This document shows positions 2,899 to 51,583 of a DNA stretch of 54,231 nt, in pieces. A program made the translations under genes and the position numbers. The notes beneath the pieces are model-generated. The model was given only the letters and a program-made list of their open reading frames with translations. It did not search any database and had not been told where the DNA came from. Location: positions 7,272,110 through 7,326,340 of the forward strand of contig NC_057718.1 in NCBI RefSeq assembly GCF_004010195.1, given 5' to 3'. Each line of letters begins with the position of its first letter. Within the stretch, counting starts at the first letter, position 1. Origin of the DNA: Chiloscyllium plagiosum (lineage: Eukaryota).

Positions 2899-3638
2899 CT
2901 GATTTGAGCCTGTGTCTCAAAAGCACTAGTTGGGTCTCTGGATGACTAGTCCAGTTCTATTACCATCGTGCAGTCCCTTCTCCTTCAAATACTCAAACAG
3001 CTTCACTTTAAAGACATCTTGTCTCTTCACATCAACTGCATGGAACAGCTGAGAAGTAAATATTTGCAGAGGTATGGGGAAAGAGCAGGGAGGTGAGTGG
3101 GGCTAATTCGATGTCACCTCCGTCTTTATGGTAAAGTTTATGGTTTTGTAGAGTACAGTCAATAGACACAAGAAAGAGAGATTACACAGACATGCTATTG
3201 AAAAAGATCGAAAGGAATTAACCAAGAGCTCAGACTGTCACTCCCTTGCAATCCTTTATTTTCAATAATATACACAAGGTACTGCATAGTCTTTTTTAAG
3301 GCAACAGTAAACCATGTTTTCAAGATATGAGGTGGGGTTGGTAACATGCAGTCAAGTTATTTACTGTAAGTAAGAGTTCAGATTTCCACATGATGACTCC
3401 AGGGATGAGGAAGTTCGGTTACATTGACAGATTCGAAAATTTGAAATTCGGAAAAAGAAGTTTAAGAGGAGATTTGATTGAGGTGTTCTGGGGGGGTCGG
3501 GACAGAGGAGATAGAGAAAAACTGTTCCTGTTGGTGAAAGGACCTGGAGGGCACAGATTGAAAATACAAGAAGGAGAAGCGATGACACAAGGAAAAGCTT
3601 TTTCACGCAGCAGATGGTTAGCAGCTGGAATTTGTGTT

Positions 3639-3677
3639 GCAGACGTTTCGTCCCCTGTCTAGGTGACATCCTCAGTG
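3639..3677 (-). ncRNA. Minimal hammerhead ribozyme motif (inverted copy)
   Basis: Minus strand: ca CUGAGGA u gucaccu-agac-aggggac GAAAC GUC ugc. Confidence 0.7.
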
Positions 3678-3913
3678 TTGTCCCTTTGACTGGGACAACA
3701 CTACTATTATAGGACAAGCCAAACAGAGAACAGCCAGGGAATTCCTAGAGGCATGGCACTCAACTATAGATTCAATCAATAAGCACATCGATCTGGACCC
3801 AATATACCGACCACTGCAGCGGACAGCTGGAACTGACAACCGGAAGCGGCAGATTCAAACCACTACAAATGGCGGAGGAAAGATCACAGAAGCGCTTCAC
3901 AGGAGGCTGCCAA

Positions 3914-3953
3914 GCACTGACGATGTTACCTAGACAGGGGACGAAACGTCTGC
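3914..3953 (+). ncRNA. Minimal type-I hammerhead ribozyme motif (PLE family A)
   Basis: gca CUGACGA u guuaccu-agac-aggggac GAAAC GUC ugc: stem I gca/ugc, full core, loopless palindromic stem III. Confidence 0.8.
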
Positions 3954-4255
3954 AACACAAATTCCCAGCTCGGTGAACAAAACCACAACAACGAGCACCC
4001 AAGCTACAAATCTTCTCACAAACTTTGAACATGCCAGGTTTTGGGGGAAGGTAAGGAAACTGCACAAGGTGCATTGCTCATTTGGAGAGTGGACACCAGC
4101 ACAATGGGCCAAATGGTCTTTTATAACAATGCTGTGACTCAGGAGGCAGGAACTCAAACTAAAACAGTCAATTAATGAAAGGAAAACATTGAGCAGAACT
4201 TGCATTTATCTACACGCTATGCCTTTCCTGATTTCAGGGCATTGCAAAATATTTG

Positions 4256-5925
4256 ATAGAGTCATAGAGAATTACAGCATGGAAACTTCGGTCCAACCCG
4301 TCCATGCCGACCAGATATCCCAACACAATCTAGTCCCACCTGCCAGCACGCGGCCCATATCCCTCCAAACCCTTCCTATTCATATACCCATCCAAATGCC
4401 TCTTAAATGTTGCAATTGTACCAGCCACCACCACTTCCTGTGGCAGCTCATTCCATACACGTACCACTCTCTGCGTGAAAAAGTTGCCCCTTAGGTCTTT
4501 TTTATATCTTTCCCCTCTTACCCTAAACCTATGCCCTCTAGTTCTGGACTCCTCAACCCCAGGGAAAAGACTTTGCCTATTTACCCTATCCATGCCCCTC
4601 ATAATTTTATAAACCTCTATAAGGTCACCCCTCAGCCTCNNNNNNNNNNNNNNNNNNNNNNNNNNNNNNNNNNNNNNNNNNNNNNNNNNNNNNNNNNNNN
4701 NNNNNNNNNNNNNNNNNNNNNNNNNNNNNNNNNNNNNNNNNNNNNNNNNNNNNNNNNNNNNNNNNNNNNNNNNNNNNNNNNNNNNNNNNNNNNNNNNNNN
4801 NNNNNNNNNNNNNNNNNNNNNNNNNNNNNNNNNNNNNNNNNNNNNNNNNNNNNNNNNNNNNNNNNNNNNNNNNNNNNNNNNNNNNNNNNNNNNNNNNNNN
4901 NNNNNNNNNNNNNNNNNNNNNNNNNNNNNNNNNNNNNNNNNNNNNNNNNNNNNNNNNNNNNNNNNNNNNNNNNNNNNNNNNNNNNNNNNNNNNNNNNNNN
5001 NNNNNNNNNNNNNNNNNNNNNNNNNNNNNNNNNNNNNNNNNNNNNNNNNNNNNNNNNNNNNNNNNNNNNNNNNNNNNNNNNNNNNNNNNNNNNNNNNNNN
5101 NNNNNNNNNNNNNNNNNNNNNNNNNNNNNNNNNNNNNNNNNNNNNNNNNNNNNNNNNNNNNNNNNNNNNNNNNNNNNNNNNNNNNNNNNNNNNNNNNNNN
5201 NNTCCTCTTTGTTACTTCCTCAAAAAACTCAATCAAGTTTGTGAGACATGATTTCCCATGCACAAAACCATGTTGACTATCCCTAATCAGTCCTTGCCTT
5301 TCCAAATACATGAACATCCTGTCCCTCAGGATTCCCTCCAACAACTTGCCCATCACCGAGGTCAGGCTCACTGGTCTATAGTTCCTTGGCTTGTCTTTAC
5401 TGCCCTTCTTAAACAGTGACACCACATTATCCAACCTCCAGTCTTCCGGCACCTCACCTGTGACTATCGATGATACAAACATCTCAGCAAGAGGCCCAGC
5501 AATCACTTCCCTAGCTTCCCACAAAGTTCTAGGGTACACCTGATCAGATCCTGAGGATTTATCCACCTTTATGCGTTTCAAGACATCTAACACTTCCTCC
5601 TCTGTAATTTGGACATTTTGCAAGGTGTCACCATCTATTTCCCTAAGTCTATATTTTCCATATCCTTTTCCACAGTAAATACTGATGCAAAATACTCATT
5701 AAGTAACCCCCCCCCCCATTTTCTGTAGCTCCATGCAAAGGCCGCCTTGCTGATCTTTGAGGGGCCCTAGTTACCCTTTTGTCCTTAATGTATTTGTAAA
5801 AACTCTTTGGATTCTCCTTAATTCTATTTGCCAAAGCTATCTCATGTCCCCTTTTTGCCCTCCTGATTTCCCCCTTAAGTATACTCCTACTGTCTTTATA
5901 CTCTTCTAAGATTCACTCGATCTAG
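4256..5925 (-). mobile_element. CR1/HER1 LINE, 5'-truncated (RT domain; spans the N gap)
   Basis: ORF 4625-5623: KSSGSDQVYPR...NYRPVSLTSVMGKLLE...SQHGF..GKSCLTNL; C-terminus FFTQRVVRVWNELP; CR1 short-repeat tail. Confidence 0.95.
4640..5202. other. Assembly gap (563 N) inside a CR1/HER1 copy
   Basis: Run of n; both flanks are CR1 RT sequence in the same orientation. Confidence 0.99.
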
Positions 5926-6114
5926 GTGATTGAATTACTTTTTGAAACAAACAAAAACAGAAATTTCTGGAGAAACTCAGCAGCACTGGCAGTGTCTGTG
6001 GAGAGAGAAACAGAGTTAACGTTTTGAGTGCTATAATTCACACAATTTCTGTTTTTATTTGTTTCAGGTCACCAGTATCCACAATTCCTTGGTTTATTTA
6101 AGTATCTTTTGAAG

Positions 6115-7290
6115 ACAGTACACATTACAATGCATGATGCTTACCTACAGCAACAAGAGCATGAGGACATCCAGGTCTCATTGAACACACCTCTCTTACA
6201 ATTTACAGCCTATCTGGTCATAATCTGCCTTCTTATTTTTGGTACCAAAGTGGATAATCCACATTATATTGCTTCACCATATATTGGCCCATTCACTCAA
6301 CCTATCTGAATCACAGTGCAACCTCTCTGCATCCTCCTCACAGCTCACCCTCCCATCCAGTTTCATGTTGTCTTCAACCTTTGAGCTATTACATTTAGTT
6401 CCCTCATCTAAATCATTAACAAATATTGTAAATAGCTGGGATACTTGTACTGATCCTTGCGGTACCCCACTAGTCACTGCCTTTCACAAAAAGACCCATT
6501 CATTCCCACTCTGGGGGGTGGCCTGGTGGCTCTGTGGTTAGCACTGCTGCCTCACAGTGCCAGAGACCTGGGTTCGATTCCCACCATCGGGCAGCTGTCT
6601 GCGTGGAGTTTGCACATTCTCCCTGTGTCTGCGTGGGTTTGTTCCGGTTTCCTCCCACAATCCAAAGATGTGCACATCAGGTGAATTGGCCATATTAAAT
6701 TGCCTATAGCGTTAGGTACATTAGTCAGCGATAAATATAGGGTAGAAGAGTGGGCTACTCTTCGGAGGGTCGGTGTGGACTTGTTGGGCCGAACGGCCTG
6801 TTTCCATGTTGTAGGGAATCGAATTGAATCTAATCTTTGTTCTCTGTCTGCAAACCAATTTTCCTATCCCTCTCAATACACTTATCCCAATCCCACATGC
6901 TTTAATTTTACACATTAATCTCTTATGTGGGTCTTTGTCAAAAATCCTCTGAAAATCCAACTAAACCACATCCACGACCCACACCCCATGGTAAACACTA
7001 CTGGTTACATTCTTGAAGAATGTGTAGATTTGTCAAGCATGATTTCTCTTTGGCGAATCCATGGTGACAGTGCCTGATTCTATTGCTGTTTTCTAAGTGC
7101 TGTGCTGTAAAATTCAGGATAATGGATTCAAGCACCTTCCCCACTACTAGCATCAGACTCTCTGGTCTATAATTCCCCGTTTACTCTCTCCATCCCTTTC
7201 TAAATAATGCGGTTACATTAGGTATTCTTTCAATTTGTAGGAACTGTTCCAAAGTCTAAAGAACCTTGGAGGATGACCACCAATACTTTC
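6115..7290 (-). mobile_element. Older CR1 RT fragment interrupted by HE1
   Basis: TSGVPQGSV...FTIFVNDLDEG (6274-6477) and MDFQRIFDKDPHKRL (6721-6960). Confidence 0.8.
6516..6835 (+). mobile_element. HE1-type V-SINE
   Basis: ggtggctctgtggttagcactgctgcctcacag...gggttcgattcc head, V core gtggagtttgcacattctccc, tail. Confidence 0.9.
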
Positions 7291-11489: not shown

Positions 11490-12190
11490 AACAAGGCATA
11501 TTGGTACAGCACTTTTAGCAGAGGATAAATCTCCCAAGATGTTTCACAGGGGCATTTCTTAATCATTCACAGGGTGAGGGCATCACTGGGCAGGCAGCAT
11601 TTATTGCCCATCCCTAATTGCCCAGAGGGCAGTTAAGAGTCAACCCCATTGCTGTGGATCTAGAGTCACATGTAGGCCAGACCAGGTAAGGATGGCAGTT
11701 TCCTTCCCTAAAGAGAATTAGTGACCAATGGATTCATGGTCATCATTAGACTTTTAATTCCAGATATTTATTAAAATCCAATTCTTCCATCTGCTGTGGC
11801 AGGAATCAAACTCAGACCCCCAGAACACTACCTGGGTCACTGGGCTAACAGTCCAGCGATAATACCACTAGGCTATTGCTTGCCTAAGCATGATCAAAGA
11901 ACATTTGACTCGTTAGGACAGATGGACAAAAACATGATCAAATTGGTTGGTTTTAGAGAGTGCCTTGATGGTATAGGAAGAGTCAGATACTTAATGACAG
12001 AGTTTTAGGGGCTAGACAACAGAACACTGATCTATGGGAAGCAAGATACTCACCAGGCCTGAATTGGAGGAGCATAGATATCTCAGAAGATTGAGAGGCT
12101 GGTGGAGACTACAAAGGTAGAGAGCGACGAGACCATGGAGGGATTTGAAAATGAGGACGATATTTTTAAAGTTAAGAGAAAGAAAAGGGT
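11490..12190 (-). mobile_element. L2-type LINE 3' end (old), interrupted by a SINE
   Basis: Minus strand ttaaaaatatcgtcctcattttcaaatccctccatggtctc (L2-like FK.LHGL motif) and an L2-like tail near 11490-11550. Confidence 0.6.
11563..11880 (-). mobile_element. tRNA-derived SINE, family 2 (non-HE1)
   Basis: Reverse complement of 18789-19135: head tagtggtattatcgctggac, ggaaactgccatccttacctggtctggcctacatgtgac, tail gggcaattagggatgggcaataaatgctg. Confidence 0.85.
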
Positions 12191-12199
12191 GCAGTTCGA

Positions 12200-12746
12200 A
12201 TGTTGAATGTGTAAGAATTCAGGCATGAGGAGAACAGAGGGCTTCAGTACCTTGCATATATTAGAACAGAGCATTAACTGACATAATGAAGACTCTCATC
12301 ATGAAAGGGAGGTGGAAACACGGGAATGTGGAGAAGTCTGAAAAACACAGATCGCTCTTAACCAGGCTTTGTTGCTGTCCTTGACATAACGCCAATGTGG
12401 ATCCATTCAAAATAACTGTGTTAGCACTGGTGTTGAAAATAAACACCACACTAATTGGAAAGTCTACACTCTTGTCTCTTATAGTTCGCACCTTTTTAAA
12501 CTCAACCTCTGTAATTTGACAACTGTGAATTGTTACTTATTACGAATTAACCAATGACCTTTTTGATGCTACGATCTCATTAGTCAGGTGATTTAGCTCC
12601 AGCCAAACTGGCTGGCTGAGGTTTGTGAGGTTAATGACTGTGATTCCATGACATTGTTTGGACATTGTAATATCTGTTTTTTTTTGATGAATTGAAACAA
12701 CTGTCTCCATTCCGCAATTTCACGTTGTAATCTCTTCTACCTTGTG
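12200..12746 (-). other. AIG1: Putative AIG1 3' UTR (non-repetitive part; true end unknown)
   Basis: Non-repetitive AT-rich sequence directly after the stop codon; no AATAAA/ATTAAA on the minus strand within this stretch. Confidence 0.55.
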
Positions 12747-12787
12747 TCAATCCATTTTGTTCTTGCTGTCAACCTTTTCTTCTATAC
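12747..12787 (-). CDS. AIG1: AIG1 terminal coding exon (41 coding bp including TGA)
   Basis: Minus strand: acceptor ctgcttttatatttctAG then gtatagaagaaaaggttgacagcaagaacaaaatggatTGA. Joined to the phase-1 T of the previous exon it reads CIEEKVDSKNKMD*, comparable to the recalled human AIG1 end SMEEEKEKPKLE*. Confidence 0.85.
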
Positions 12788-12922
12788 CTAGAAATATAAA
12801 AGCAGATCAGATATATATTTCAGTGAAGTATTTTTTCTATTTTTGCCTCTTACAATTTGTTTGCTTGTAAACTGTCAATACCATCAGGGCACCCTCAGCA
12901 GAATACCTGTCCTGTCCTGTCA

Positions 12923-13748
12923 TTAGATTAGATTCCCTACAGTGTGGAAACAGGCCCTTCGGCCCAACCAGTCCACACTGACCCTCAGAAGAGTAACCCA
13001 CCCAGACCCATTTCCCTCTGATTAATGCACCTAACACTATGGGCAATTAAGCATGGCCAATTCATCTGGCCTTCACATCTTTGGACTGTGGGAGGAAGCC
13101 ACAGAACTGTGTCCAGTTCTGGTCGCCCTATTATAGGAAAGATGTGGATGCTTTGGAGAGGGTTCAGAGGAGGTTTACCAGGATGCTGCCTGGAATGGAG
13201 GGCTTCTTTTATGAAGAGAGGTTGACTGAGCTCGGACTTTTTTCATTGGAAAAAAGAAGGAAGAGAGGGGACCTAATTGAGGTGTACAAGATAATGAGAG
13301 GCATAGGTAGAGTTGATAGCCAGAAACTTTTTCCCAGGGCAGAAATTGTTAACACGAGGGGTCATAGTTTTAAGCTGTTTGGCGGCAAGTATAGAGAGGA
13401 GGTCAGACGGGGTTCTTTACGCAGAGAGTTGTGAGAGCATGGAATGCATTGCCAGCAGCAGTTGTGGAAGCAAGATATTTAAGAGACTGCTGGACATGCA
13501 TAGGGTCACAGAAATTTGAGAGTTCGTACATTAGGTTTAACTCACATGAGGATCAATGGTCGGCACAACATCGTGGGATGAAGGGCCTGTTCTGTCCGAT
13601 GTTCTAAGCCGGAGCACCCGGAGGAAACCCACGCAGACATGGGGAGAATGTGCAAACTCCACACAGACAGTCGCCCAAGGCTGGAATTGAACCTGGGACC
13701 CTGGTGCTGTGAGACAGCAGGGCTAACCACTGAGCCACCGTGCCGCCC
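12923..13748. mobile_element. HE1 (minus) split by a plus-strand CR1 3' fragment (~13103-13605)
   Basis: HE1 3' half at 12923-13100 and 5' half at 13606-13748; inner ORF CVQFWSPYYRKDVDALERVQRRFTRMLPG. Confidence 0.88.
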
Positions 13749-14063
13749 CAGAAAGCCCATTGCTTGGCCCTCTCAGCCATTTCATGGGGTAATTAAGAGT
13801 TAACCGAGTAGCTATGGATCTGGACTCATGTGCAGTCCAGACCGGGTAAGGACAGCAGATTTCCTTCCCTAAAGGACATTAGTGAGCCAGGAAGGTTCTT
13901 ATGACTCACTGGGTGTTTCATTGCCTCGCTGATATTACATTTCAATCCCAGGTTAGATTGAATTTAAATTCCACAAGTTGCCATGATAGGATTCGAACCC
14001 ATGTCCTCAAGGCATTAGCTTGAGGCTCTGAATTTCTCGTCCACTCATATTACTACTACACAA

Positions 14064-14260
14064 GGAGAAAATGAGGGCTGCAGATGCCGGAGATCAGAGT
14101 CAAAAGGTGTGGTGCTGGAAAAGCACAGCAGGTCAGGCAGGATCTGAGGAGCAGGAGCGTCATCATTTCAAAAGGGTTTATGCCTGAAACGTGGACTTTC
14201 TTGCCCCTCAGACGCTGCCTGACCTGCTGTGCATTTACAGAGGCATACCTTTTGACTCTT
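14064..14260. mobile_element. PLE family-B fold-back mini-element (diverged)
   Basis: Tail gagaaaatgagggctgcagatg; arms agagtcaaaaggt...cagcaggtcaggcag / ctgcctgacctgctg...accttttgactct. Confidence 0.8.
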
Positions 14261-14314
14261 ATTGTTGCACAATACTGTCTTCCTTTGTGTTAGTTGTCCC
14301 CGTTGTGAACTCCA

Positions 14315-15395
14315 GAGTGCTTCAGTGCACAGGGATCTGTATGTCATCATTCATTCATGAGTCACAGAAAACTAATGTTCAGGTACAGCAGGTAATAAGG
14401 AAGGCAAATAGAATTTTCTTTTGCCAGAGGGATAGAGTATAAAACTAGGGAAGTGTTTCTGCAACTGCACAAGGCTTCAGTGGGACCGCACCTTGTGTAT
14501 TGTGTACAATTTTGGTCCCCTTATTTGAGGAGTGATATAATTGAATTGGAGGCAGTTCAGAGGAGGTTCATTACATTGATTCCAGAGATAAGGGGTTTGT
14601 CTTATATCATAGAATCCCTAAAGTGTGGAAACAGGCCATTTAGCCCGACAAGTCCACACCGACCCTCTGAAGAGTAACCCACCCAGACCCATTCCCCTAC
14701 TCTACATTTACCCCTGAATAATGCACCTAACTTACACATCCCTGAAGACTATGGGTAATTTAGTGTGGCCAGTTCACCTAACCTGCACATCATTGGATTG
14801 TGGGAGGAAACCGGAGCACCCAGTGGAAACCACATAGACACGGGGAGCATGTGCAAACTCCACACAGACAGTTTCCCGAGGTTGGAATCAAACCTGGGTC
14901 CCTGGTGCTGTGTGACAGCAGTCTAACCACTGAGCCACCATGCCACCCCTCTCTTTTTATGAAGAGAGATTGAACAGTTTGAGCCAGTACTCTCTGGGGT
15001 TTAGAAGGATGAGAGGAGATCTAATTAAGGTGTATAAGATGCTGAAGGGAATTGACAAAGAGATGTGGAGAGAAAGACATAGAGATGGTGTTTCATTTGG
15101 GACAATTGAGAAGAAAGATCATACTTTGCAGATAATGGGTAGCAGATTTAAAACAGATGAGGTGCAATTATTTTTCTCAGAGGGTCATGAATCTGTGGAA
15201 CTCACTACCACAGAGTGTGGTGGACACTGGGAAATGATTAAATTTAAGGAGAAGGTAGGCAGACTTTTAATTAGCAACAGGTTGAAGGGTTATGGAAAGT
15301 GGAGTTTGAGTTGAGATCAGCTATGTTTGCCTTAAATGGCGGAGCAGGCTTGAGGGGCTGAATGGACTACTCCTGCTCCTATACCCGATGTTCTT
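14315..15395 (+). mobile_element. CR1 RT C-terminus and 3' end interrupted by HE1 (minus, ~14608-14948)
   Basis: PHLVYCVQFWSPYL...EAVQRRF and RRMRGDLIKVYKML on either side of a complete HE1. Confidence 0.85.
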
Positions 15396-16124
15396 TTGTT
15401 GACAGAAGTGGGTTTGAGCCCAGCCTTTCTCTCCTACACTTGACCCCTGACTTGAAGCTGCTGGTAATTTGATAGTTAGGACATTTCTGAGTCCTAACAG
15501 TATCATCTAATAGTGGTCCTGTGCGAAGTATGCCACTTACTCGGCACGATCACAGTTAATTTCTGCATGCTCCGATATCTGCAACATGTCTGCCTCAAGC
15601 TCCTTACCCCATGTGAGGTAGTTCGAAGCCATGATAGAACAAGAACTTTCACTTGTTCAGTCTGGGTGTTCACCTGGAAGAATAGTCAATATCGAATTCG
15701 GAAAATTAACAGTGATATCATAGGAGGATGGTCTGACAAGGGTTCTGTATAGCTGCAACATGGTTTGTCAACTCTTGTACTCCGTGACAAAAATGGAATT
15801 CACACCGTGGCAATACAGGTAACCAAGGTGATGAAGAAGGCATATGGCACGCTTGCCTTCATCGGATGGAGTATGGAGTACAAGAGTTGACAAACCATGT
15901 TGCAGCTATACAGAACCCTTGTTAGGCCATGTTTGAAGCATTGTGTGCAGTTTTAATTAGATTCCCTACAGTGTGGAAACAGGCTCCTACGCATAGAGTG
16001 GTAGGAGCCTGGAACGTACTGTTTGAAGAGGTGGTGGAAGCAGGCACATTGGTGACATTTAAGAGGCATCTGGATGGTTCCATGAATAGGGAGAAGAGAG
16101 AGGAAATATAATGAAAAGAGACAA

Positions 16125-16470
16125 AGGGAGGCAACAGCATAATGGCACTATCACTGGGATATTAATTCAGAGACCCAGGTAATGTTCCTGAGACCTGGGT
16201 TTGAAACTTGCAATGGCAAATTGTGGAATTGGAATTCAATAAAAGTCTGGAAATGAGAGAGTAATGATGACCATAAGTCAATTGTCAAAAACCTATCTGT
16301 TTCACAGATATCCTTCAGGGAAGGAAACTGCCATCCTTACCTGGTCTGGCCCACATGTGACACTAGACCCAGAGCAATATGGTTAATTCTTAACCGTTCT
16401 CTGGGCTACAATGGATGGGCAATAAATGCTGGCCTAACCAAGGAGGCCCACATCCTGTGAATAAATAAAA
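16125..16470 (+). mobile_element. tRNA-derived SINE, family 2
   Basis: Same head, core and tail as 18789-19135; ends gaataaataaaaa. Confidence 0.8.
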
Positions 16471-16689
16471 ACTAAACCAAAATCCCAAATCTGTTTTCCA
16501 GATTTTTTTTTCATTTTGCAGAAGCTTTCATTTTAAGGAAAGGACTCAAGGAATATAGCTGAGATGGAGAAGGAAATGGAAATATTTTTAAGAAGGTGAG
16601 AGATAAATTGTGTTTAAACAATGGACTACAATTATTTCAGGAGCACACATCAAAAGGTGAGATTTTATGTCATGAAAATATTTCTAATG

Positions 16690-16985
16690 ATTAGATTCCC
16701 CACAGTGTGGATACAGGCCCTTCAGCCCAACCAGTCCACACCTACCCTCCGAAGAGTAACCCATCCAGACCCATTTCCCCCTGATTAATGCACCTAACGC
16801 TACTAGCAATTTAGCACGGCCAATTCACCTAACCTGCACATCTTTGTGTTTGTGGGAGGAAACCCACACAGACATGGGGGAAGAATGTGCAAACTCCACA
16901 CAGACAGTCACCCGAGGCTAGAATCAAACCTGAGACCCTGGTGCTGTGAGGCAGCAGTGCTAACCACTGAGCCACCACACCACCC
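16690..16985 (-). mobile_element. HE1-type V-SINE
   Basis: ttagatt tail through gcagtgctaaccactgagccacc head. Confidence 0.88.
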
Positions 16986-17557
16986 AGCAATGACTAGTGA
17001 TATCTTTGAGCAGTTTAGGGCTACACTAATGAAGTTCAAAAGAGTGAGAGGAGATCTAATTGAGGTATATTAAATGCTAAAGGAGATTGACAAAGTAATG
17101 TAGAGAGGATGTTTCCTCATGCTGGCATTCTAGAATAGCTGGGAATTTGAGTATATTTATGTTGGAGATAGACAGATTTTTAATTAGTAACGGTTTGAAG
17201 GGTTATAGAGAGTGGGCAGGAAAGTGGAGTTGAGGCAGAAATGAGATCAGCCATGATGGTATTCGATGGCAGTGCGTGCTAGAGGGGCTGAATGGCCTCC
17301 TCATGCTCCTAGTTTTCATGTTTGAAGCTCAATTATTGTATAAGGAACTGAGAATCACCTAAAAGCTGGTTAACTAAAAGTTGGAGAGAGGTTTCCCTGG
17401 AAGTGAAATATAAATGGGTTACGTTGCAGATACGTAGCTTGCAAAGAATAATTAATAATGAGTTGTGCCCATAATGAATATTCCCAGTAGCGGATGTGTC
17501 ATCGATTGTCCTGCAGAGTTGCAATTTGTGAACCAGGCTTTACAGTATGTCATACAA

Positions 17558-17738
17558 AATCAAAATTGTGGCGCTGGAAAAGCACAGCTGGTCAGGCAGC
17601 ATCCGAGGATCACGAATGAAGAGCTTATGTTTGAAATGTCGACTCTCCTGCTCCTCGGATGCTGCCTGACAGGCTGTGCTTTTCCAGCGCCACACGTTTT
17701 GACTCTGATCTTCTGCACCTGCAGTCCTCACTTTCTCC
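17558..17738. mobile_element. PLE family-B fold-back mini-element ~50 bp from the AIG1 donor site
   Basis: Arms gtggcgctggaaaagcacagc..tcaggcagcatccgagga / tcctcggatgctgcctgac..gctgtgcttttccagcgccac; tail ctgcagtcctcactttctcct. Confidence 0.85.
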
Positions 17739-17787
17739 TATATATCATGGATACATGTTAAACTGAAACAGCAACGCCAGTACTTAC

Positions 17788-17951
17788 ATCTTGACTCGTC
17801 CCAGATGAAACTGTTTAACATCTCGCCCACCACGTACAGTACATTGATCACAACCAACGACGCAACAAAGACAACAGCCTTGAGGATGTTAGAGAGGTGG
17901 TCAAGAAATGGATAGACCCACATTCCTGTGATGTGATGGATCCAGCAAATC
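17788..17951 (-). CDS. AIG1: AIG1 penultimate coding exon (164 bp; phase 2 in, phase 1 out)
   Basis: Minus strand: acceptor ttccctgatcttctcccAG, exon (W)[54 protein letters not shown], donor GTAAGT. Closely matches the recalled human AIG1 segment [20 protein letters not shown]...LYLLGEVLNNYIWDTQK and is closer to it than to ADTRP. Confidence 0.93.
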
Positions 17952-18224
17952 CTGGGAGAAGATCAGGGAAATGCAAACAGTCAAACCTTCTTGCATCCAA
18001 GATAAGCAACAGAAAACAGCTGTAACACTTTCATATCACAAAATTAGGCCCTGTCCCTACTGTGGAGATCATCTCCTGCCGTAAGCTAACAGCTAAACTC
18101 CTCCAGTCCAGGTAGAGGAGCCATTGCAGATTCACCTTGTCCCAGGCTCTGATTAGAATACAGTCAATGACTGGTCATTGCAAGTTCAGTTGCAACATGT
18201 AGATGCTGAAGGATAGTCTTTTTT

Positions 18225-46975: not shown

Positions 46976-47421
46976 ATAAGGAGCACATTCCATCTGCCAT
47001 GTGGATTTAGCACCTACCCTTGCAGTATCTTTCTAGTAACAGCCTATCATCCTGAGATGAATCCACTTATTCCTATTCTCCGCTGTCTTTCTGTAGACCC
47101 ATTCTCAGTCTTCTACATTGCTACTTTTCCCCCAATCCCTTGCACTCTAATTTTATTTATGAACTTCCTGTATGGGGCTTGAACAAAAGTCTATAGGAAA
47201 TCCATATACACCACATGTGCTAGTTCTCCTTTAACAATATATAAATAATATCCTCAAAAAACTCCATCAAGCTTTTTAGAAATGATTTCCCTTTCATTAA
47301 ACTAAATTGGCTCTATGTCCAATTTTACGATTATGTTCTAAATGTCCAGTTGCTACATTCTAATAGATCTTATTATTTGCCCTACTGCTAGTGTCAGACT
47401 AACAGGTCTCCAGTCTCCAGT

Positions 47422-48519
47422 CTCTTGTAGTGAATTCTCCGTTCGGTGTTCTCTGTACCATCACGTCTAGGAATGGGAGTTGGCTATCCTTTTCTTCTTC
47501 TCTCGTGAATCGGATTCCTGTGAGTGTGGCGGAAATAGAAAAAACACACCGGATCATCAACGCCACACTCACAGGAATCCGATTCACGAGAGAAGAAGAA
47601 AAGGATAGCCAACTCCCATTCCTAGACGTGATGGTACAGAGAACACCGAACGGAGAATTCACTACAAGAGTATACAGGAAAGGCACACACACAGACCAAG
47701 TCCTAAACTATGAAAGTAACCACCCCAACACACACAAACAACGCTGCATCAGGACACTATTCAACGGGCCACAACACACTGCAGCACACCAGGACTGCAA
47801 AAAGATGAAGAGGAACACCTATACAAGGTATTAGCCAAAAACGGATACCCGCGTAACTTCATCAACAGATGCCTAAGAGAAAGACCACGGAACGAGGACA
47901 TACCACAACCAAAAGGACTAGCCACACTACCATACATCAGGAGCATCTCGGAACTGACTGCCAGACTACTGCGACCCCTAGGACTCATAACGGCATACAA
48001 ACCAACAGCCACGCTCAGACAACAACTCACCAGAACGAACGACCCGATACCCAACATGAGCAAAACGAATGTAGTGTACAAAATACCATGCAAGGACTGC
48101 ACAAAACACGATATAGGACAAACAGGAAGACAGCTAACAATCCGCATACATGAACATCAACTAGCCACGAAACGACACGACCAGCTATCCTTAGCAGACA
48201 ACAAGCAACATGAATTCGACTGGGAAAACACTACTATCATAGGGCAAGCCAAACAGAGAACAGCCAGGGAATTCCTAGAGGCATGGCATTCACCAAAAAA
48301 TCCATCAACAAACACATTGACCTGGACCCAATATACCAACCACTACAGCGGACAGCTGAAACTGACAACCGGAAGCGGCAGGGACAGACCACTATAAACA
48401 CCGGAGGAAACATCAAAGAAGCGCTTCGCAGGAGGCTCCCAAGCACTGATGATGTCGCCTAGTCAGGGGACGAAACGTTTGCAACAAAAACTTCCAGCTC
48501 GGCAAACAGAACCACAACA
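47422..48519 (+). mobile_element. Young Penelope-like element (family A), 5'-truncated, with a perfect 110-bp fold-back at the 5' end
   Basis: IRFTREEEKDSQLPFLDVMV..VYRK.THTDQVLNYESNHP; NVVYKIPCKDCTKHDIGQTGRQLTIRIHEH; inverted repeat 47422-47531 / 47561-47670. Confidence 0.95.
48443..48482 (+). ncRNA. Minimal type-I hammerhead ribozyme motif (PLE family A)
   Basis: gca CUGAUGA u gucgccu-aguc-aggggac GAAAC GUU ugc. Confidence 0.82.
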
Positions 48520-49628: not shown

Positions 49629-51583
49629 TGTAGTGAATGAAACCAGGTGGATTTCATTGATCACGAGATCCTTGATTGGGTTTGTTAACCTGGGCTAATC
49701 AGGGAGCCCTGGCTGACCAATAAAACCAGGGGATTCCAACTCTATTTTGATTTAGTCCCTACCCTCCCCTTCACTGTTTTGATCACACAGCACTGTCCCT
49801 TGATGTGAAGGGCAGTGTTTGTCACTGGCCACCCGGGTGTTTTCCAATCTTCCTGGTGGTGGAAATTGAATAAAGATTCGTGCACTTTGTGTCTTTCACT
49901 GTGTCTCACACCTGCACACACACACACCATGGGTGCTGGGGAAAAAATAAGCACTACCGCACTTAGGTAAAAAAAAAAAATAAACAGAGAATTTTGTGAG
50001 CGTTTGCATTCCCTTTTTGATTTTCTTAAAAACCTTCTCCTCTGTTTTTGGCTGCACTTCAGTCCCACGCTCCTGATCTTTGGGCACCCGGTACGGAGGA
50101 AGGAGGGCAGGTCTGAAGACCTCCTCGTGGGTCTGCTCCTGGGCCTGGCCAAACTGGCCATAAACAGGTCCAGGCAGCGGGTCATGGAGGGGATCATTAG
50201 GACTGACAGCCCGCCCCTCTTCCTGGTTACGTTAGAGCCCGGGTGTCTCTGGAAAAGGAGCACGCGGTGTTCACCAACACCCTGGAGTTGTTCAGGGAGT
50301 GGAGTGCATCATTTCTCCCTCCAATTCTATTTTGATTTAGTCCCTACCCTCCCCTTCACTGTTTTTGATCACACAGCACTGTCCTTTGATGTGAAGGGCA
50401 GTGTTTGTCACTGGCCACCTGGGTGTTTTCCTATCTTCCTGGTGGTGGAAATTGAATAAAGATTCGTGCACTTTGTGTCTTTCACTGTGTCTCACACCTG
50501 CACACACACACACCATGGGTGCTGGGGGAAAAAATAAGCACTATCACACTTAGGTGGTAGTGTGGGAAAAAAAACAGGGGACTCACACAGCACTAAAAAG
50601 AAAAACAGAGAAAAAAAAAATAAAATCAGGGGATTCCAACTCTATTTTGATTTAGTCCCTACCCTCCCCTTCACTGTTTTGATCACACAGCACTGCCCTT
50701 TGATGTGAAGGGCAGTGTTTGTCACTGGCCACTCGGGTGTTTTCCTATCTTCCTGGTGGTGGAATTTGAATAAAGATTCGTGCACTTTGTGTCTTTCACT
50801 GTGTCTCACACCTGCACACACACACCATGGGTGCTGGGGAAAAAAAAATAAGCACTACCGCACTTAGGTGGTAGTGTGGGGGTTAAAAAAAAAGGATAAA
50901 AAAAACAGGAGTGGCGCCCAAAAAAAAAAGGAGGAATGTCCCTGCCCTCCCCCTCACTGTTTTGATCACACAGCACTGATCTTTGATGTGAAGGGCAGTG
51001 TTTGTCACTGGCCAAAAAATAAATAAATAAAACCAGGGGATTACCAACACCCTGGAGTTGTTCAGGGAGAGGTGGGCGCCGCAGGGAGTGGAGTGCATTA
51101 TTTCTCCCTCCAACTCTATTCTGATTTAGTCCCTACCCTCCTCTTCACTGTTTTGATCACACAGCACTGCCCTTTGATGTGAAGGGCACTGCTTGTCACT
51201 GGCCACTCGGGTGTTTTCCTTTCTTCCTGGTGGTGGAAATTGAATAAAGATTCGTGCACTTTGTGTCTTTCACTGTGTCTCACACGTATACACACACACC
51301 ATGGGTGCTGGGGACAAAATAAGCACTACCGCACTTAGGTGGTAGTGTGGGGGTTAAATTTAAAAAAAGAAGAAAAAAAAGGAGTGTGATCACACAGCAT
51401 TGCCTTTTGTGTAGGGCACTGCTTGTCAAAAAATAAATAAATAAAAAATAAAACCAGGGGATTCAGAATCTCCTCACTTCAGGGAATGACTCTGACCTGG
51501 CTGGTTACACAGTCAGTGTACTGTGCACGTGCAGATAAAGGGTGACTTGGTGACAGGATAATGGCCTCTGTGCTGTTATTTCA
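49629..51583 (+). mobile_element. Probable solo LTR (~230 bp; 49629-49735 plus 51464-51583) split by the Tx1-like array
   Basis: TG...CA termini, CCAAT-like boxes (gattggg, ctaatca), A-rich TATA-like site and gataaa near the end; no TSD visible. Confidence 0.5.
49736..51449 (+). mobile_element. Array of Tx1/L1-clade LINE 3' ends (4 long units plus short poly-A-tailed fragments)
   Basis: ORF2 C-terminus CERLHSLFDFLKNLLLCFWLHFSPTLLIFGHP...LLLGLAKLAI; repeated 3' UTR with aataaa and poly-A tails; aaaa(c/t)caggggatt recurs four times. Confidence 0.85.

What the first reader, a model, noticed from the sequence alone, without database searches (positions are those of the whole stretch)
49719..51463. 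Stack of Tx1-like LINE ends at one site in an LTR, with the target motif repeated four times
Seen: aaaa(c/t)caggggatt at 49722-49735, 50622-50635, 51029-51042 and 51450-51463 brackets successive 5'-truncated units. The first two motifs are exactly 900 bp apart and are followed by the same truncation point (ccaactctatt); the third is followed by a different one (accaacaccctgg). Removing the array restores a ~230-bp TG...CA LTR-like sequence, cut at its TATA-like region. Established: many Tx1-clade elements are sequence-specific and some target other transposons. Inference: a site-preferring Tx1 family that re-inserts into its own TSD, or insertion followed by tandem duplication.
Basis: partly seen in the sequence, partly recalled or inferred. 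Interest (0 to 1): 0.7.

Follow-up and report, generated by a model that had tools for sequence, protein, structure and literature searches.

The report
LINE tails stacked in LTR promoter
A jumping gene related to the frog element Tx1 has landed repeatedly at one 17-base spot beside the TATA box of another jumping gene's end-repeat, a real example of a targeting habit already described in frogs and crocodilians.

Summary
The motif is 17 bases and occurs four times. The stack holds four LINE 3' ends, not three, plus three shorter internal pieces. The LINE's ORF2 end is 53% identical to Xenopus Tx1. The host is a dispersed 227-bp TG...CA repeat split at its TATA position. Contigs of this and a related species show 8 other LTR-LINE junctions at this site with 7 different 5' ends (only the top rows were shown), so independent insertion is the rule. 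Simple tandem duplication fits poorly: all three informative characters pair U1 with U2, not with U3. Exclusive targeting is not shown: LINE tails are 8.5-10 times deeper than the LTR. No read or contig confirms the array's interior. Unexplained: five internal linkers resemble target sites of other LTR copies, which hints at transduced stacks. LTR-targeting Tx1 families and TSD-separated tandems are published (PMC4494074). The scan noted this architecture at ten other loci of this genome (unchecked). New member of a known kind.

The parts
49629..49718 (+). Left part of a small LTR-like repeat: TG start, two CCAAT-type boxes (49675 reversed; 49695 with one change)
   Evidence: Raw-read depth about 754 in bin 49663-49753 against about 0.35 in unique flanks. 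At 49696, 1033 of 1251 reads carry C, which gives CCAAT (table 3). The left boundary is read from the TG and is not shown sharply by reads.
49719..49735 (+). Target site copy M1 (17 bp; its A-rich half sits at the LTR's TATA position)
   Evidence: The commoner LTR variant reads TATAAA here (table 7, loose ends behind 49717: 438 reads).
49736..49968 (+). U1: last six ORF2 codons plus 3' UTR, ending about 15 nt early, then poly(A)
49969..49994 (+). A12 tail and target-like linker 1
   Evidence: 8 of 234 background A-rich run ends score as high
49995..50566 (+). U2: ORF2 C-terminus (frameshift near 50225, 19-bp deletion at 50299 relative to U4, stop at 50338-50340) plus 3' UTR
   Evidence: Family reads continue upstream from 49995 (993 loose ends).
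50567..50618 (+). A-run, linker 2, 12-nt internal UTR piece (50583-50594), A-rich run with a second copy of the start of linker 1
   Evidence: (family D13)
50619..50635 (+). Target site copy M2 (one C>T change)
50636..50884 (+). U3: same 5' junction as U1, complete 3' end
50885..51025 (+). A-runs, linkers 3 and 4, a 7-nt piece of uncertain origin (50913-50919), 77-nt internal UTR piece (50938-51014), A-rich tail
   Evidence: (family D2)
51026..51042 (+). Target site copy M3
51043..51355 (+). U4: starts 67 nt earlier in ORF2 than U1/U3; complete 3' UTR with terminal hairpin
   Evidence: terminal hairpin z = -3.21
51356..51446 (+). A-rich tail, linker 5, 42-nt internal UTR piece (51387-51428), A-rich tail
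51447..51463 (+). Target site copy M4
51464..51583 (+). Right part of the LTR-like repeat: decayed poly(A) signal at 51534, CA end
   Evidence: Depth about 635. Loose ends behind 51583 in all four runs with agreement of only 0.34-0.37, as expected for unrelated flanks. Other copies join 49717 to 51535.

Best explanation
A Tx1-clade LINE with a sequence-preferring endonuclease inserts by target-primed reverse transcription at the TATA region of a family of small LTRs, in the LTR's own direction. Each event duplicates the same 17 bases, so the site is rebuilt and can be hit again: at least three events gave four site copies here. Shown: the repeated site, LINE identity, LTR host, other junctions at the same site with other 5' ends, and different source variants among units. 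Inferred: a bottom-strand nick at the left end of the site, with the RNA's poly(A) pairing to the T-rich primer. Inferred and weaker: each inserted cDNA was composite, carrying a LINE end, an A-tail, a target-like linker and a shorter piece. The most likely cause is a source RNA that read through a stack in another LTR copy and was polyadenylated inside the next unit (about 0.4); template jumps in one event (about 0.3) and nested insertions into the tails (about 0.3) remain open.
For: Four 17-bp site copies with one change in 68 bases, each directly after an A-rich tail or the LTR left part. ORF2 peptide 53% identical to Xenopus Tx1 residues 1178-1242, E 2e-10 for the pair. Of 15 joints shown (of 1183), 6 join the LTR left part to the LINE; 2 more appear among 12 rows shown (of 800) in table 5c. 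These 8 have 7 distinct LINE starts (+48 to +151 from the U1/U3 start); none of the joints shown uses another LTR position; 2 occur in both species. In the 5 with printed letters the LTR side is a diverged copy ending within about 2 nt of the same site (read by eye). A tail-to-unit joint from another locus has a 16-letter target-like linker (50888 to 50683). Units differ by 2.2-6.5%, with different 3' ends. All five internal linkers that precede a short or truncated piece score in the top 0-9% of 234 background A-run ends.
Against: 3' UTR depth is 8.5-10 times and ORF2-end depth 2.7 times the LTR depth, so most tails are not accounted for by LTR copies at 85% likeness. All 8 junctions come from contigs, with short sides of 20-30 letters, mostly in one unevenly covered run (X15); none shown is in the raw reads. 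The tool cut reads at 51424-51457, so neither the exact empty site nor tail-to-LTR junctions could be read. U1 and U3 share one 5' junction and have the fewest substitutions (5 of 231), and none of the 8 outside junctions uses that start. The linker test used two reference motifs chosen after seeing the data, and a 9-letter degenerate pattern was not enriched window-wide (5 matches, 3.84 expected).
Confidence: 0.7

Rival explanations
1. The LINE has only a short motif preference (an A-run followed by a G-rich stretch). The LTR's TATA region is one hot spot among many targets, not the family's home.
For: Tail depth is 8.5-10 times LTR depth. The linkers vary widely. One earlier scan note (e1-7788809, unchecked) reached this reading at another locus.
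Against: All 8 LTR-LINE joints shown fall at one position of the 227-bp repeat, across diverged LTR copies. LTR variants under 85% likeness and stacking itself would raise the depth ratio.
Confidence: 0.17
2. One or two insertions were followed by tandem duplication or unequal exchange that copied motif plus unit (U3 to U1 or the reverse), with later conversion or nested insertion.
For: U1 and U3 have an identical 5' junction and the lowest substitution count, 5 of 231.
Against: All three informative characters (alignment columns 62, 99 and CA-run length) group U1 with U2 and U3 with U4; none groups U1 with U3. The 3' ends and tails of U1 and U3 are unrelated. The shared start lies 1 nt 3' of a long RNA stem (z = -2.95) and has 2 nt of homology with the target, which offers another route to the same junction.
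Confidence: 0.1
3. The array is an assembly artefact from haplotypes or collapsed repeats.
For: No listed contig or read spans the array (table 8). The scaffold has a 563-N gap elsewhere.
Against: Four different UTR copies and three shorter pieces with unique junctions exceed what two haplotypes can supply. Both LTR-flank junctions are in contigs of two samples of this species and one of a related species (table 8). Stacked joints exist at other loci in independent runs.
Confidence: 0.03

Closest known systems
Tx1-8_Crp and Tx1-4_AMi, crocodilian Tx1-clade LINEs (Kojima 2015, PMC4494074; parts 1-4 of 5 read; supplements not available)
   Same: [quoted passage not shown]
   Different: The main text gives no position within the LTR element; figures S3-S4 may. 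Here the site is the TATA position, and stacks reach four site copies. Kinship to these families was not tested.
Tx1-Mar LINEs with SINEU-3 in Mariner-N4_AMi (same paper)
   Same: Tandem insertions sandwiching a TSD of about 16 bp, read as sequential insertions; the author proposes transcription from the target element.
   Different: The target is a DNA transposon and the stacked units are snRNA-derived SINEs; here they are the LINE's own 3' ends with extra linkers and pieces.
Tx1L of Xenopus laevis (UniRef entry P0010; passages of PMC1950540)
   Same: Closest named protein; a specific endonuclease targets one site in another transposon.
   Different: Tx1L targets the DNA transposon Tx1D and is described as stringent; stringency here is unproven.
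Double-insertion tandems, including R1 in rDNA (McGurk and Barbash 2018, PMC5932611; passages read)
   Same: Head-to-tail units separated by the TSD, with different 5' truncations.
   Different: Different LINE clade and target; no expansion into a homogeneous satellite here.

Membership tests
Tx1 clade of non-LTR retrotransposons | ORF2 protein closer to Tx1 than to mammalian L1 | tested here: met
   Window peptide 53% identical to Xenopus Tx1. Its closest listed relative P0002 (74%) matches Tx1 at 41% over 99% of its length, E 1.5e-138, but human L1 ORF2p only over residues 9-181 at E about 1e-6.
Tx1 clade of non-LTR retrotransposons | Placement by reverse transcriptase phylogeny; AP-type endonuclease | not testable with these tools
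   The window holds only the last ~115 codons of ORF2 and no genome is held. P0001 has no Pfam match.
Tx1 clade of non-LTR retrotransposons | Poly(A) tail, 5' truncation and target-site duplication | tested here: met
Target-specific Tx1 family (Kojima 2015 criterion) | One target type in more than 20% of flanks | tested here: inconclusive
   8 junctions at one LTR site among the rows shown, but no denominator; depth ratio 8.5-10.
Solo LTR of an LTR retroelement | Dispersed multi-copy repeat with TG...CA ends and CCAAT, TATA and poly(A)-signal order | tested here: met
   Depth, sharp right end, joined halves and loose-end letters; motif positions.
Solo LTR of an LTR retroelement | 4-6 bp target-site duplication around the LTR | tested here: not met
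   ACCC on the left against TTCT on the right.
Gypsy superfamily LTR | Attached internal region with Gypsy domain order | not tested
   No internal region in the window; the label comes only from unchecked scan notes.
Tandem by double insertion (McGurk and Barbash 2018) | TSD at junctions and distinct 5' truncations | tested here: met
   Exact site at three junctions; three distinct starts among four units, with U1 and U3 sharing one.
SINE sharing the LINE tail | RNA-gene-derived head and a fixed 5' end | tested here: not met
   No tRNA, no credible Rfam match, no place where many molecules begin (table 6); units start inside ORF2.

The most novel reading that the evidence does not exclude
The LINE parasitises the LTR's promoter. 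It lands in sense just behind the TATA box, and every insertion duplicates that box, so even 100-300-bp promoterless tails are transcribed from the LTR, read through whole stacks, and are copied by intact elements into the same site of other LTRs. Stacks would then spread as composite RNAs that carry the target sites of their donor loci, which would explain the foreign-looking linkers and the excess of very short tails.
Probability: 0.25. Interest if true: 0.65.

Novelty: new member of a known kind. Interest (0 to 1): 0.38.

Why it matters
It adds an LTR promoter site in a shark-like genome to the list of Tx1 targets and gives many natural junctions for defining what the endonuclease recognises. 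A LINE that disables LTR promoters, or borrows them, would be a clear transposon-on-transposon interaction. If the internal linkers are donor-site tags, source loci of each insertion could be traced. The core behaviour is already published for crocodilian and frog Tx1 families.

Tried and rejected
No whole genome is held, so no flank census or unit phylogeny across the genome was possible. No other copy of the LINE or LTR lies in the window. Two exact-pattern scans of metagenome contigs, one for the LINE tail and one for the LTR, found 0 matches. Tandem Repeats Finder reports nothing in the array. Pfam has no match for the window peptide. Rfam gave one chance-level match (16.4 bits against a cut-off of 95). 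A 9-letter degenerate linker pattern is not enriched window-wide. Hairpin stalling as a general rule for 5' ends was rejected: outside junctions lie at +48 to +151, several inside a stem or loop. Decay of the local 17-mer as the source of the linkers was rejected: they differ by several bases in ten while the four true copies differ by 1 in 68. Whether the related species has an empty or filled site could not be told: its contig starts 47 letters before 51458, next to the stretch the tool cut. High contig depths of some junctions in run X15 were not read as amplification, because the same junctions are at single-copy depth in X1 and X5. Look-ups of earlier findings by sequence found nothing. 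The Tx1L endonuclease paper PMC85248 is not held. Paper searches listed no paper whose title or abstract start describes a shark Tx1 family in LTRs or a Tx1 family at a TATA box; most subscription papers and Repbase were not searchable.

Full report
Setting. The window is repeat-rich animal DNA with many dispersed repeats and decayed reverse transcriptase frames and one 563-N gap. That the repeats look like those of sharks and rays is my recollection and comes from no call. No genome is held, so outside evidence comes from one laying of four public runs: raw reads X19 and contigs X1 and X15 of the same species label, and contigs X5 of a related species (4 of 22 listed runs).

Observation. The motif lies exactly where stated and extends to 17 bases at 49719, 50619, 51026 and 51447, with one change among the four copies. 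Allowing 3 mismatches gives 5 matches, all in the array, against 0.28 expected. Spacings are 900, 407 and 421 bp. U1 and U2 share the first interval. Each interval also ends with A-runs and a short internal UTR piece that itself ends in an A-run (12, 77 and 42 nt).

The LINE. U2 carries the end of ORF2, with a frameshift near 50225 and a 19-bp deletion relative to U4. Its first 78 residues are 53% identical to Xenopus Tx1 ORF2 residues 1178-1242 and 74% identical to a 622-residue unnamed protein that matches Tx1 at E 1.5e-138 but human L1 only weakly. U1 and U3 begin about 20 nt before the stop codon. There is no tRNA or other RNA-gene head and no dominant start among reads (table 6), so these are truncated LINE ends and not a SINE. 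Rough copy numbers from raw-read depth are 12,000-18,000 for the 3' UTR, 3,600-6,300 for the ORF2 end and 1,200-2,200 for the LTR. They use a single-copy depth of 0.35 (7 unique bins) or 0.54 (from a 3.6-Gb genome size in an unchecked scan note).

The host. The outer parts, 49629-49735 and 51464-51583, sum to 227 bp with TG and CA ends. Both are deep in reads while the flanks are single-copy. The right end is sharp, with unrelated sequence behind 51583 in all four runs. Other copies join 49717 to 51535 across a different middle (27 reads; 13, 5 and 12 contigs), and their letters show TATAAA at the split position and AATAAA before the end. The order CCAAT, TATA, poly(A) signal fits an LTR. It has no TSD and its superfamily was not tested. 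Both flank junctions are in contigs of the related species, so the LTR itself predates the split of the two species; whether its site is empty there could not be read.

Targeting. Of 15 joints shown out of 1183, 6 run from the LTR left part into the LINE, 1 joins the LTR halves and 8 are within the LINE. Two more LTR-LINE joints appear among 12 rows shown out of 800 in table 5c. The 8 have 7 different LINE starts, +48 to +151 from the U1/U3 start. In the 5 with printed letters, read by eye, the LTR side is a diverged copy that ends within about 2 nt of the same site. No joint shown uses another LTR position. Another locus shows a tail joined to a truncated unit through a 16-letter target-like linker. 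Limits: these are the best-supported rows only, all from contigs, with short sides, mostly in X15; reads were cut at 51424-51457, which hides the exact empty site and the 3' junctions; and the tail outnumbers the LTR 8.5-10 fold, so exclusive targeting is not shown.

How the stack formed. Units differ by 5-15 substitutions in about 231 columns. U1 and U3 are closest by count (5) and share a 5' junction, which favours duplication. But all three informative characters pair U1 with U2 and U3 with U4, and the tails of U1 and U3 are unrelated. The shared start lies 1 nt 3' of a long stem (z = -2.95) with 2 nt of homology to the target, a possible route to recurrence, although none of the 8 outside junctions uses it. 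The 77-nt and 42-nt pieces carry variants absent from their neighbouring units but present in family reads, so they had other templates. I conclude at least three insertion events at one rebuilt site, as described for double insertions (PMC5932611, passages).

The linkers. Five internal linkers precede a truncated or short piece. Scored against the non-A half of the local site or of the commoner LTR variant, they are matched or exceeded by 8, 1, 0, 20 and 3 of 234 background A-rich run ends. The array had 20 such run ends in all: 4 are the true site copies and the other 11 score low. The two reference motifs were chosen after seeing the data, and a degenerate 9-mer was not enriched window-wide. 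The linkers are too different to be decayed local copies; two fit the commoner LTR variant best. The simplest account is read-through RNA from stacks in other LTR copies, polyadenylated inside the next unit. Template jumping, or nesting of U2 in U1's tail (a 10-base direct repeat flanks U2, family D13), cannot be excluded. This step is inference.

Comparison with what is known. Kojima 2015 (PMC4494074; parts 1-4 of 5 read) reports Tx1 families that target piggyBac, Mariner, Harbinger and LTR retrotransposons, tandem insertions sandwiching a TSD, and possible transcription from the target. Its supplements could not be read and may give the position of the crocodilian LTR targets. Passages of PMC1950540 describe Tx1L's specific endonuclease; passages of PMC3747384 place Tx1 beside vertebrate L1. 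Five searches (listings only) showed no paper on a shark Tx1 family at an LTR TATA box, but Repbase and most subscription journals were out of reach. Earlier notes of this scan report the same architecture at ten other loci of this genome; they are unchecked and were not used as support.

Verdict. Real, correctly read in outline, and a new member of a known kind. It works like Tx1L or Tx1-Mar, belongs to the Tx1 clade by protein similarity, and is not yet shown to meet the published criterion for a target-specific family. The open and more interesting question is whether the stacks borrow the LTR promoter and travel as composite RNAs. Interest 0.38.

Noticed in passing
window:34634-35125 (-) and 47403-48394 (+): Decayed frames of Penelope-like elements (label recalled); the first has a weak GIY-YIG match (E 0.00028, below the cut-off), the second none. 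Short related stretches at 3623-3990 and 48215-48519 match each other.
   Followed up: partly
window:31265-31783 (+) and 5204-5695 (-): Reverse transcriptase fragments (Pfam RVT_1) of the abundant CR1-like LINE (label recalled); the 563-N gap at 4640-5202 lies next to the second.
   Followed up: partly
window:37030-37259 and 159-282: Near-perfect two-copy tandem duplications of 114 bp and 61 bp (98% matches); recent duplication or assembly slip.
   Followed up: no
window:49901 (table 5c): A family copy elsewhere ends in an A-rich tail about 30 nt behind the AATAAA inside the 3' UTR, so the LINE has more than one 3' end; the four units here pass that signal.
   Followed up: no
window:51053-51117, 51163-51196, 51323-51348: The LINE's end folds into three hairpins (z = -2.95, -1.68, -3.21); U1's poly(A) starts just after the loop of the last one.
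   Followed up: partly
window:51740: Contigs of X1, X15 and X5 all read A where the window has C (table 3): a private allele or an assembly error in the right flank.
   Followed up: no
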